Origin: the human T2T-CHM13v2.0 reference genome, Homo sapiens | Length of the DNA: 64,000 bases | NCBI RefSeq assembly: GCF_009914755.1 | Contig: NC_060935.1 | Strand: one strand, 5' to 3' | Part shown: one piece after another, positions 40,291 to 41,714 of the stretch | Layout: the number at the start of each line of letters is the position of its first letter | How positions within the stretch are numbered: position 1 is the first letter of the stretch | Program-made: the position numbers and the translations under genes | The notes under the pieces: model-generated | Seen by the model: the letters and a program-made list of their open reading frames with translations, nothing else | Databases searched by the model: none | What the model was told of the DNA's origin: nothing

Positions 40291-40606
40291 CTAGCAAATT
40301 TGATATCTGAGATGATTCATCTATCAGAAGCCAAGAGATAATTAGTTTTTTCCATCAGTAATTATTGAAGGCTTTAACAAATATGATTTTCATGATGTTT
40401 CCCAAAATGTATGCCACAGAATATTTATATGAGTTATAAGAAAGGAGTTATGTAGTCATTTAAATTTGGGAAATGTTAGTTAAAATAAGTTTTTAAACTA
40501 TAGGTCTGTTCAGGACCTCTCATGTGCCAGTGTGGACTATGAAACATACTGTTTGGGAAATGCTACATACAGTTAACCCCCTTTTCCCCCCTTTTTTTTT
40601 TCTCAG

Positions 40607-40759
40607 GATGGAGTCTCACTCTGTTACCCAGGCCGGAGTGCAGTGGCGCAGTCTCGGCTCACTGCAACCTCCACCTCCCAGGTTCAAGTGATTCTCATGC
40701 CTCAGTCCCCCGAGTAGCTGGGATTACAGATGCCCACCACCATGCCTGGCTAATTATGG
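40607..40759 (+). CDS. TOP6BL: Alu-derived alternative cassette exon of TOP6BL (51 codons)
   Basis: ttaac branch point, long C/T tract, ctcag| acceptor, TGG|gtgagg donor; 153 nt, open in the exon 2/exon 3 frame. Confidence 0.72.
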
Positions 40760-41714
40760 GTGAGGAGTGCTTCCACCTGCTCCACATCCTATCCAGCCCT
40801 CAATTTTCAGTTATATTTCCAATGCTTTTATATAAAAACGATAAAATTCTATCCTCCAGATGCAAAGATGACAGTAGAGACTTATCTGTAAAATACATAT
40901 TTTAAAGCAAGCATTCCCCCAAATCCCCTCTATAGAACAGAAGATTATCTTTTTAAAACAATGTAAACAAAATTTTTTTCTGAGATGGGGTCTTGCTCTG
41001 TGTTGCCAAGGGTGGAGTGCAGTGGTGCCATCACGGCTCACTACAACCTCTGTTTCCTGGGCTCAGCTGATCTTCCCACCTCAGCCTCCTGAATAGCTGG
41101 ACTACAGGTGTGTGCCATCATGACCTGCTAATTTTTGTATTTTTTGTGGAGATGGGGTTTTGTGATATTACCCAGGCTGGTCTTGAATTCCTGAGCTCAA
41201 AATATCTACCCACCTCAGCCTCCCAAAGTGCTGGGATTACAGGTGTGAACCACCATGCCTGGCCATAAGATGGTCTTTATAAAGGGTGGAGGCGGCGGTG
41301 GGGGGTGGGGGCGGGTGCAGGCACTGTGGCTCATACCTGTAATCCCAGCACTTTGGGAGGCTGAGGCGGGTGGATTGCTTGAGGTCAGGAGTTCGAGACC
41401 AGCCCGCCCAACATAGTGAAACTTCGTCTCTACTAAAAATACAAAAATTAGTCGGGCGCGGTGGCGTATGTCTATAATCCCAGCTACCCAGGAGGCTGAG
41501 GCAGGAGAATTGCATGAACCTGGGATGTGGAGGTTGCAGTGAGCCGAGATTGTGCCACTTCACTCCAGCCTGGGCGACAGACTCTGTCTCAGTGAAAAAT
41601 AAAATAAAATAATAATGAAAAAGACTATCTGTTGTTAAATGTTCTGTGCTGCTTGGGCTTAGGCCTTTGGAAGTGTGTATCATTTATCCAGAATCACTTA
41701 AAATCTGGAAATCT

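What the first reader, a model, noticed from the sequence alone, without database searches (positions are those of the whole stretch)
40571..40766. Frame-preserving exonised Alu arm in a meiotic DSB gene
Seen: a lone antisense Alu right arm with a branch point, a 30-nt pyrimidine tract, an AG, and a donor created exactly where the Alu is truncated. The 153 nt read without stops: [51 protein letters not shown], then VASAGS in exon 3. Inference: a primate-specific 51-aa insertion in the N-terminal GHKL-like region that escapes NMD and might modulate or poison the SPO11-TOP6BL complex. I recall a longer annotated C11orf80 isoform consistent with this, so it may be catalogued but functionally unexplored.
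Basis: partly seen in the sequence, partly recalled or inferred. Interest (0 to 1): 0.7.

Follow-up and report, generated by a model that had tools for sequence, protein, structure and literature searches.

The report
Known Alu-derived exon in TOP6BL
This is a real but already annotated and published alternative exon, made from half of an Alu repeat, that adds 51 amino acids to the conserved front end of the human meiotic break-forming protein TOP6BL; what it does is untested.

Summary
Window 40607-40759 is a 153-nt exon made from a lone antisense Alu right monomer. It has a 28-nt pyrimidine tract, a CAG acceptor, and a GTGAGG donor that starts where Alu homology ends. The hub's RefSeq table lists it as an exon of the second TOP6BL transcript. 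Lin et al. [quoted passage not shown]

Read from the conserved exon-1 ATG through conserved exon 32633-32771, it stays in frame and replaces Ile57 with 52 residues, a net gain of 51. It splits a near-invariant LHCVTT|IAS motif in the GHKL-like domain.

Predicted ape and monkey proteins show the Alu is old and the peptide unconstrained. The orang-utan uses the human frame. Gibbons read the first two-thirds in another frame. Aotus uses only the last 17 codons.

The open frame is intrinsic to antisense Alu (17 of 32 window copies), and the published peptide evidence is weak on inspection.

The proposed 'modulator or poison' role is untested.

A side issue may matter more: the 'selected' transcript skips the conserved exon and starts at a non-conserved Met behind an overlapping uORF.

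The parts
40573..40577 (+). Branch-point-like TTAAC (A at 40576), 30 nt upstream of the acceptor G, in non-Alu flank
   Evidence: motif match only, not shown to be used
40577..40604 (+). 28-nt uninterrupted pyrimidine tract including T10 (40592-40601); the T run is the complement of the Alu poly-A tail
   Evidence: 20 of 20 pyrimidines at -23..-4
40605..40606 (+). Acceptor AG (CAG|G). It is offset by 1 nt from the AG of the window Alu consensus; 0 of 32 other copies have AG in the same alignment columns
   Evidence: hub annotation gives the exon start as 40607
40607..40759 (+). Alu-derived cassette exon of TOP6BL, 153 nt. It is read with codons starting at 40609 and encodes R57-M107 plus the first base of V108
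   Evidence: hub RefSeq table; Lin et al. 2016 Table 1 and Table S2
40592..40758 (-). Lone Alu right monomer with its tail, antisense to the gene. Homology ends where the A-rich linker of a dimeric Alu would begin. A 5'-truncated Alu and a free right monomer cannot be told apart here
40756..40758 (+). In-frame ATG forming the last full codon of the exon, in strong context (A at -3, G at +4); a possible alternative start
   Evidence: PRIDE peptides starting at this Met
40760..40765 (+). Donor GTGAGG in non-Alu sequence, directly after the end of Alu homology. It matches CAG|GTAAGT at 5 of 9 positions, the same as exon 1
32633..32771 (+). Conserved upstream coding exon (residues 11-56 plus the first base of codon 57). 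It must be included for the Alu exon to be in frame
29139..29141 (+). Conserved TOP6BL start codon in exon 1 (MEGTAVAVFE), G at -3 and G at +4; the only ATG in exon 1
   Evidence: Met in 39 of 40 aligned orthologues
43306..43359 (+). Downstream exon. It completes codon 108 (G|TT = Val with the Alu exon, A|TT = Ile without it) and holds the start codon of the selected transcript at 43335
   Evidence: hub table
41441..41600 (+). Nearest Alu in the opposite orientation, about 0.7 kb downstream. It could pair with the exon in the pre-mRNA
   Evidence: duplex -234.5 kcal/mol against -81 +/- 7 for 100 shuffled partners

Best explanation
Window 40607-40759 is a genuine, already annotated alternative cassette exon of TOP6BL. 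It arose by exonisation of a lone antisense Alu right monomer. The complement of the Alu tail supplies the pyrimidine tract, changes at the tail/body junction supply the CAG acceptor, and the unique sequence abutting the truncated Alu end supplies the GTGAGG donor.

When it is spliced between the conserved exon 32633-32771 and exon 43306-43359, the ORF from the conserved exon-1 ATG stays open. Ile57 is replaced by 52 residues, a net gain of 51, inside the GHKL-like domain. The insert splits a near-invariant LHCVTT|IAS motif.

Inferred, not shown: the insert has no selected function of its own. It is most likely a tolerated by-product of Alu exonisation. The resulting isoform probably has a loop-expanded or impaired GHKL-like domain, and the skipping isoform carries the ancestral function.
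For: Identity and anatomy:
- Sequence, splice signals and frame.
- Alu origin and truncation.
- The hub's RefSeq table lists 40607-40759 as an exon of the second transcript.
- Lin et al. 2016 list a 153-nt C11orf80 Alu exon with psi >= 0.33 in at least one tissue. Their PRIDE peptides are identical to my translation.

Position in the protein:
- The exon 32633-32771 peptide matches 153 TOP6BL orthologues at E <= 0.001.
- In 108 of the 120 listed, it is followed after one junction residue by the next-exon peptide.
- L51, H52, C53 and T56 are invariant, and V54, T55, I108, A109 and S110 are at least 90% conserved, in 40 sequences.

Lack of constraint on the insert:
- The open frame is intrinsic to antisense Alu: the consensus is open and so are 17 of 32 copies.
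- Orang-utan keeps the human frame, with 47 of 50 residues identical.
- Two gibbon genera read residues 3-40 in the human frame that starts at 40607 (31 identical). They return to the human frame only for the last 17 residues (16 identical).
- Aotus has only a 17-residue version.

The skipping form exists in apes: bonobo, gorilla and Nomascus models.
Against: - The hub table lists only two human transcripts. The only one that keeps the conserved N-terminal exon also carries the Alu exon, so in humans the Alu form may not be a minor by-product.
- In all four insert-bearing lineages the insert is a multiple of three with no stop. For gibbons this implies two compensating 1-nt changes. That could reflect selection to keep the frame, or simply that gene predictors report only open models.
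- Inclusion reached at least 33% in some tissue.
- I saw no tissue-resolved inclusion values and could not fold the protein.
Confidence: 0.6

Rival explanations
1. The Alu-bearing isoform is a regulator: it still binds SPO11 and REC114 through the intact transducer and C-terminus, but its altered GHKL-like domain modulates or poisons the break-forming complex.
For: - The insert splits a near-invariant motif.
- The SPO11 interface (residues 389-457) and the REC114 helix (559-572) are left untouched (passages of PMC9671922). That arrangement is what a dominant-negative would need.
- The frame is kept in four primate lineages.
- There is a precedent for isoform-level control of this complex: SPO11 alpha and beta differ by the helix that binds TOPOVIBL (passages of PMC9665070).
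Against: - No expression, binding or activity data exist. Searches found no paper on it.
- The peptide sequence is not conserved: gibbons use another frame for two-thirds of it, and Aotus keeps only 17 residues.
- The TOP6BL GHKL-like domain is degenerate and does not drive ATP-dependent dimerisation (passages of PMC11922745), so it is unclear what would be poisoned.
Confidence: 0.12
2. The exon acts mainly at the level of the mRNA leader and start-codon choice. In transcripts lacking exon 32633-32771 it puts a stop into the exon-1 ORF. It also offers its own strong in-frame ATG (40756), giving an N-terminally truncated protein that begins MVASAGS.
For: - With exon 1, the Alu exon and the next exon joined, the exon-1 ORF stops inside the Alu.
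- The ATG at 40756 is in frame, with A at -3 and G at +4.
- Two of the three PRIDE peptides begin at exactly this Met. The residue before it is Ile, which is not a tryptic site, so they fit a protein N-terminus better than an internal peptide (trypsin specificity is my own knowledge).
- Lin et al. state that most highly included Alu exons lie in 5' UTRs.
Against: - The only annotated transcript with the Alu exon also has exon 32633-32771, and there the exon is plainly internal coding sequence (hub table).
- A Met followed by Val is usually removed (my own knowledge), so a Met-retaining N-terminal peptide is not the expected form.
- A protein starting there would lack the 56 most conserved residues.
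Confidence: 0.15
3. The Alu-bearing protein is the working human meiotic TOP6BL. The 51 residues form a tolerated surface loop, and the ancestral skipping form is minor in human germ cells.
For: - Only two human transcripts are in the hub table, and the one with the conserved N-terminus has the Alu exon.
- psi >= 0.33 in at least one tissue.
- Alu-derived inserts in the same frame occur in proteins that were solved. Gamma-tubulin complex component 2 isoform 3, residues 210-236, is an example.
- ADARB1 stays active with an Alu insert in its catalytic domain (abstract of PMC4731929).
Against: - The insert splits a conserved motif rather than falling in a variable region.
- Other apes have predicted skipping isoforms.
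- No germ-cell data were seen.
Confidence: 0.1

Closest known systems
ADARB1 (ADAR2) coding Alu exon
   Same: An in-frame antisense-Alu cassette exon that inserts a peptide into a conserved enzymatic domain. It appears in the same 2016 table as this exon.
   Different: For ADARB1, both isoforms were shown to be active, with altered activity (abstract). For TOP6BL no functional test is in print in the library searched.
Gamma-tubulin complex component 2 isoform 3 (PDB 6v6b and related entries)
   Same: The same antisense-Alu reading frame is translated. Chain residues 210-236 align to residues 1-27 of the TOP6BL insert, E 6e-7.
   Different: The host protein and the insertion context differ. I did not check whether the segment is ordered in those structures.
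Typical antisense-Alu exonisation (acceptor at the poly-T/body junction, donor inside the Alu)
   Same: Antisense orientation, right arm, and an acceptor directly after the T tract.
   Different: The donor is not an Alu-internal site. It lies in unique sequence at the point where the Alu is truncated; only 3 of 32 window copies have GT in those columns. That typical Alu exons use internal donors is recalled, not tested here.
SPO11 alpha/beta alternative splicing
   Same: Isoform-level variation in the same break-forming complex. One SPO11 isoform lacks the helix that binds TOPOVIBL (passages of PMC9665070).
   Different: The SPO11 variants are conserved across mammals and plants and are not repeat-derived. 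The TOP6BL Alu exon is confined to anthropoid primates, and its peptide is unconstrained.

Membership tests
Exonised antisense Alu (Alu cassette exon) | The exon sequence derives from an Alu element lying antisense to the gene | tested here: met
   62 blastn matches in the window. A 7SL-like arm on the minus strand at 40605-40750. 129 of 149 positions match the consensus of 32 window copies.
Exonised antisense Alu (Alu cassette exon) | The acceptor AG is preceded by a pyrimidine tract that is the complement of the Alu A-tail | tested here: met
   T10 within a 28-nt pyrimidine run, followed by CAG|G
Exonised antisense Alu (Alu cassette exon) | The exon is spliced into mature mRNA | not testable with these tools
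   I could examine no reads. It rests on the hub's RefSeq exon and on Lin et al. 2016 Table 1 (psi >= 0.33 with at least 10 junction reads in at least one tissue). This exon does not occur in their Ribo-seq file (3) or RT-PCR files (4 and 5).
Exonised antisense Alu (Alu cassette exon) | Restricted to primates | tested here: met
   Of the 120 listed orthologues, 6 carry an Alu-derived insert: 1 orang-utan, 4 gibbon and 1 Aotus. No non-primate does. These are predicted proteins only; no primate DNA was available.
NMD-escaping coding cassette | Length divisible by three and no stop in the frame used, rejoining the downstream frame | tested here: met
   153 nt and open. It continues into ...GGMVLKKFLK, which is the frame of the selected coding sequence. 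This holds only if exon 32633-32771 is included.
TOP6BL / TopoVIB-like protein (host gene) | The flanking exons encode the conserved TOP6BL N-terminus, and the full protein matches Pfam DUF4554 | tested here: met
   153 orthologues. PF15091 at residues 171-622 of the orang-utan isoform, E 4e-275; the human downstream exons match residues 126-628 in order.
Insert within the GHKL-like domain | The insertion point lies inside the domain (mouse residues 1-172) | tested here: met
   The insert follows residue 56; the domain limits come from passages of PMC11347134. The position relative to strands and helices is not established because no model could be made. Neither a profile of 40 orthologues nor the exon-32633 peptide found anything in the PDB at E <= 10. 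The full orang-utan protein matched only Alu-derived segments of unrelated chains.
Dominant-negative or regulatory isoform | The isoform is expressed in meiotic cells, binds its partners and alters break formation | not tested
   No data were found in the library searched, and no tool here can test it.

The most novel reading that the evidence does not exclude
In humans, most TOP6BL mRNAs that keep the conserved N-terminal exon also include the Alu exon. If so, one of two things follows. Either human meiotic break formation runs on a TOP6BL whose near-invariant LHCVTT|IAS motif is split by a 51-residue Alu loop, or inclusion is a primate-specific off-switch or dominant-negative that limits SPO11 activity. 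This reading rests on three points: the hub table has no human transcript for the ancestral protein, inclusion reached at least 33% in some tissue, and the frame is kept in four primate lineages.
Probability: 0.1. Interest if true: 0.7.

Novelty: already known. Interest (0 to 1): 0.27.

Why it matters
TOP6BL is required with SPO11 for meiotic breaks. Variants in it are reported in recurrent hydatidiform mole (passages of PMC11354253).

The exon itself is catalogued, so the finding adds no new kind of element. Three practical points emerge:
- The insert falls in the most conserved stretch of the protein rather than in a variable loop.
- The published peptide support for its translation is weaker than the table suggests.
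- The human transcript set may misrepresent the meiotic protein. The 'selected' transcript lacks 66 conserved N-terminal residues, and the alternative carries the Alu insert.

The third point affects how coding variants in exon 1 and exon 32633-32771 are numbered and interpreted. It also affects which human cDNA should be used for biochemistry.

Tried and rejected
No fold, and no with/without comparison, was obtained.
- PDB by sequence found no TOP6BL or TopoVIB match. This covered the exon-32633 peptide, the full orang-utan protein and the 40-sequence profile (0 hits at E <= 10). The insert therefore could not be placed on a solved fold.
- Two protein searches were aimed at finding more species with the insert. 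Both were swamped by Alu-translated 'hypothetical proteins' of one Plecturocebus cupreus annotation. Only the orang-utan cluster appeared, so whether Old World monkeys, chimpanzee or gorilla have annotated insert-bearing forms is unresolved.
- I tried to obtain archaeal TopoVIB sequences for a profile comparison. The family was detected in four control genomes, but no loci were given, so I dropped this.
- Literature on transcript use: NM_024650 with TOP6BL gave 0 papers. NM_024650 alone gave 3 irrelevant papers. Q8N6T0 gave one use in AlphaFold3 modelling with no isoform detail.
- I considered that Alu homology might continue past the donor in degraded form and rejected it (111 of 500 shuffles scored as high).
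- I considered the open frame as evidence of selection and rejected it.

Full report
**What is at the coordinates**

- A TTAAC motif has its A at 40576, and the previous AG is at 40571.
- An uninterrupted pyrimidine run spans 40577-40604. It is 28 nt and includes a T10 run at 40592-40601.
- The acceptor is CAG|G, with the exon starting at 40607.
- The donor is TGG|GTGAGG, directly after 40759.

The exon is 153 nt. Read with codons starting at 40609, it gives [50 protein letters not shown] without a stop. The other two frames have stops.

**It is a lone antisense Alu right monomer**

- The stretch 40592-40755 has 62 other matches in the window on both strands, at 70-86% identity. In 61 of the 62 the match ends at or before 40758, and one runs to 40762.
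- Rfam finds one 7SL-like arm on the minus strand at 40605-40750. It scores 37.5 bits, below the family's gathering score of 70, with E 2.2e-7. Neighbouring full Alus give two arms each.
- Against a majority consensus of 32 window copies, the exon differs at 20 of 149 positions, 11 of them at CpG sites, with no indels. The other copies differ at 9 to 42 positions, median 18. This is therefore an ordinary, middle-aged copy.
- Homology ends where the linker of a dimeric Alu would start. The next 145 nt are not Alu-like: 111 of 500 shuffles scored as high.
- I cannot tell a 5'-truncated dimeric Alu from a free right monomer with these tools.

**Splice signals**

- All 20 positions from -23 to -4 are pyrimidines.
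- The donor matches CAG|GTAAGT at 5 of 9 positions. Exon 1 also scores 5, exon 32633-32771 scores 7 and exon 43306-43359 scores 6.
- The acceptor AG is offset by one base from the AG of the consensus. None of the 32 other copies has AG in the same columns, and only 3 of 32 have GT at the donor columns.

**Reading frame in context**

I joined the annotated exons in four combinations.
- Exon 1 + 32633-32771 + the Alu exon + 43306-43359 gives one open frame from the only ATG of exon 1 (29139): MEGTAVAVFE | ILRF...HCVTT | RWSL...WLIM | VASAGSLFGGMVLKKFLK.
- Without the Alu exon the frame is also kept (...HCVTT I ASAGS...). The Alu exon therefore replaces Ile57 with 52 residues, a net gain of 51.
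- It is frame-preserving only if exon 32633-32771 is present. With that exon skipped, the exon-1 ORF stops inside the Alu.
- The frame runs into the Met at 43335 that starts the selected coding sequence, so no premature stop follows.
- The downstream human exons match orang-utan residues 126-628 in order. All but one of those matches are free of stops. The exception covers residues 210-249, at 65% identity with one stop.

**The insert sits in the most conserved part of the protein**

- The 46-residue peptide of exon 32633-32771 finds 153 TOP6BL orthologues at E <= 0.001, and 120 are listed, at 76-100% identity.
- In 108 of the 120 it is followed, after one junction residue, by the next-exon peptide.
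- Six of the 120 carry an Alu-derived insert.
- The other six are one fragment, one model lacking a match to the next exon, one model with an 8-residue gap, and three with a 2-residue offset.
- In a 40-sequence alignment, 16 of the first 56 columns are invariant. L51, H52, C53 and T56 are invariant just before the junction, and I, A and S just after it are at least 90% conserved.
- Mouse TOPOVIBL has its GHKL-like domain at residues 1-172 (passages of PMC11347134).
The insert splits a conserved LHCVTT|IAS motif rather than falling in a variable region.
- Where this lies in the fold I could not establish.

**Primate history, from predicted proteins only**

- Orang-utan has the same 51-residue insert in the same frame, with 47 of 50 residues identical. 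Apart from a 45-residue N-terminal extension on the bonobo model, it aligns collinearly with a bonobo skipping isoform, differing by that one 51-residue gap.
- Two gibbon genera also have 51 residues. Residues 3-40 follow the human frame that starts at 40607 (31 identical), and only the last 17 return to the human frame (16 identical). This implies a one-base difference near the exon start and a compensating extra base before the RVAG codons (inferred).
- The New World monkey Aotus has only [17 protein letters not shown], which fits an internal acceptor. In the human sequence, the AG at 40704-40705 would give a 54-nt in-frame exon.
- Within the human gene, the exon copy is 94% identical to the orang-utan insert, against at most 75% for other full-length Alu matches.
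- The Alu and its donor therefore probably predate the split between catarrhines and platyrrhines.
- The amino-acid sequence is not constrained.
- The open frame is not a signal either: the window consensus is open in this frame, as are 17 of 32 copies.
- Whether Old World monkeys have the form is unresolved.

**It is already in print**

Lin et al. 2016, Genome Biol 17:15 (PMC4731929), cover this exon. I read sections 5, 6, 7 and 10 and searched its five supplement files.
- Table 1, row 10, lists a C11orf80 exon at chr11:66523823-66523976 (hg19, 153 nt). It has psi >= 0.33 in at least one of 19 tissues, no significant tissue difference, PRIDE peptides, and no PeptideAtlas support.
- Table S2 gives the peptides M<VASAGSLFGGMVLK, M<VASAGSLFGGMVLKK and WSLTLLPR. 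These are letter for letter my translation, which ties the published exon to this one.
- The files I saw give yes/no flags, not per-tissue values.
- The exon does not occur in their Ribo-seq or RT-PCR files.

**The peptide support is thin**

- The 24 bases coding WSLTLLPR occur 288 times in this genome, 158 forward and 130 reverse.
- That peptide would also need cleavage before proline.
- The other two peptides contain a single Alu-derived residue and start after an Ile. They fit a protein N-terminus at the in-frame ATG 40756 (A at -3, G at +4) better than an internal tryptic fragment. Trypsin rules are my own knowledge.
- The authors put the false-discovery bound of their PRIDE search at 22%.
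- Searches for C11orf80, TOP6BL or TOPOVIBL together with Alu found no paper on the exon's function.

**How it most likely works**

Shown:
- An Alu-derived, annotated cassette exon that keeps the frame and enlarges the GHKL-like domain by 51 residues.

Inferred:
- The insert has no selected sequence-specific function, and the skipping isoform carries the ancestral role.

- The modelled SPO11 interface (residues 389-457) and the REC114 helix (559-572) are untouched (passages of PMC9671922). A protein with a damaged N-terminal domain could still engage its partners, which keeps the idea alive but untested.
- The GHKL-like domain is degenerate and does not drive ATP-dependent dimerisation (passages of PMC11922745). 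What an altered domain would change is therefore unclear.
- A downstream Alu in the opposite orientation (41441-41600) can pair with the exon: -234.5 kcal/mol against -81 +/- 7 for 100 shuffled partners. This could damp inclusion or attract editing.
- C11orf80 is named among the most heavily edited transcripts in HeLa cells and brain (passage of PMC12838065), but the sites were not seen.

**A side observation that may matter more**

- The transcript marked 'selected' joins exon 1 directly to 43306 and starts at Met 43335.
- That Met is present in only 12 of 40 aligned orthologues, all anthropoids; 26 have Leu, one Phe and one Thr. The exon-1 Met is present in 39 of 40.
- In that transcript the conserved exon-1 ATG (G at -3, G at +4) opens a 26-codon ORF. 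It ends 19 nt past the selected ATG.
- The selected protein would lack the 66 N-terminal residues, including the 16 invariant ones.
- The hub table has no human transcript for the ancestral protein, although bonobo, gorilla and Nomascus models encode it.

**Verdict**

The element is already known. Its function remains open, and the next useful data are junction counts in human meiotic cells.

Noticed in passing
window 29139-29168 joined to 43306-43359 (selected transcript): The selected TOP6BL transcript skips the conserved coding exon 32633-32771. Its start Met (43335) is present in 12 of 40 orthologues, all anthropoids, and is Leu in 26. The conserved exon-1 ATG becomes a 26-codon upstream ORF overlapping that start. 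The hub table lists no human transcript for the ancestral protein.
   Followed up: partly
window 28992-29168, repeat at 29069-29094: A perfect (GGC) repeat of 8.7 copies lies in frame with an ATG at 28992, which is 26 nt upstream of the annotated exon-1 start. Ape gene models start at the equivalent Met. The repeat encodes 8 Ala here against 4 in the bonobo, gorilla and gibbon models. RefSeq flags it as a repeat-instability region.
   Followed up: partly
window 40592-40759 and 41441-41600: The Alu exon and an oppositely oriented Alu 0.7 kb downstream can form a long duplex, -234.5 kcal/mol against -81 +/- 7 for shuffled partners. A 2026 paper names C11orf80 among the most A-to-I-edited transcripts; the sites were not seen.
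   Followed up: partly
window 40756-40758: The last full codon of the Alu exon is an in-frame ATG in strong context. Two of the three PRIDE peptides reported for this exon begin at this Met after a non-tryptic Ile.
   Followed up: partly
proteins P0003, P0007-P0009 (gibbons) and P0010 (Aotus): Gibbon models read the first two-thirds of the same Alu exon in a different frame and rejoin the human frame for the last 17 residues. The Aotus model uses only a 17-residue 3' part of it.
   Followed up: partly
window 40625-40684 (+) and 40701-40752 (-): There are sub-threshold Rfam matches to mir-3135 (48.6 bits, gathering score 80) and mir-1268 (50.3 bits, gathering score 83) inside the exon. The same pair recurs in the neighbouring Alus, so these are properties of Alu sequence, not genes.
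   Followed up: no
proteins P0121-P0242: One Plecturocebus cupreus genome annotation contains hundreds of long 'hypothetical proteins' made of translated Alu copies. They swamp any protein search that includes an Alu-derived segment.
   Followed up: no
PDB 6v6b_C and related entries: Gamma-tubulin complex component 2 isoform 3, used in solved gamma-tubulin ring complex structures, carries a peptide in the same antisense-Alu frame at residues 210-236.
   Followed up: no
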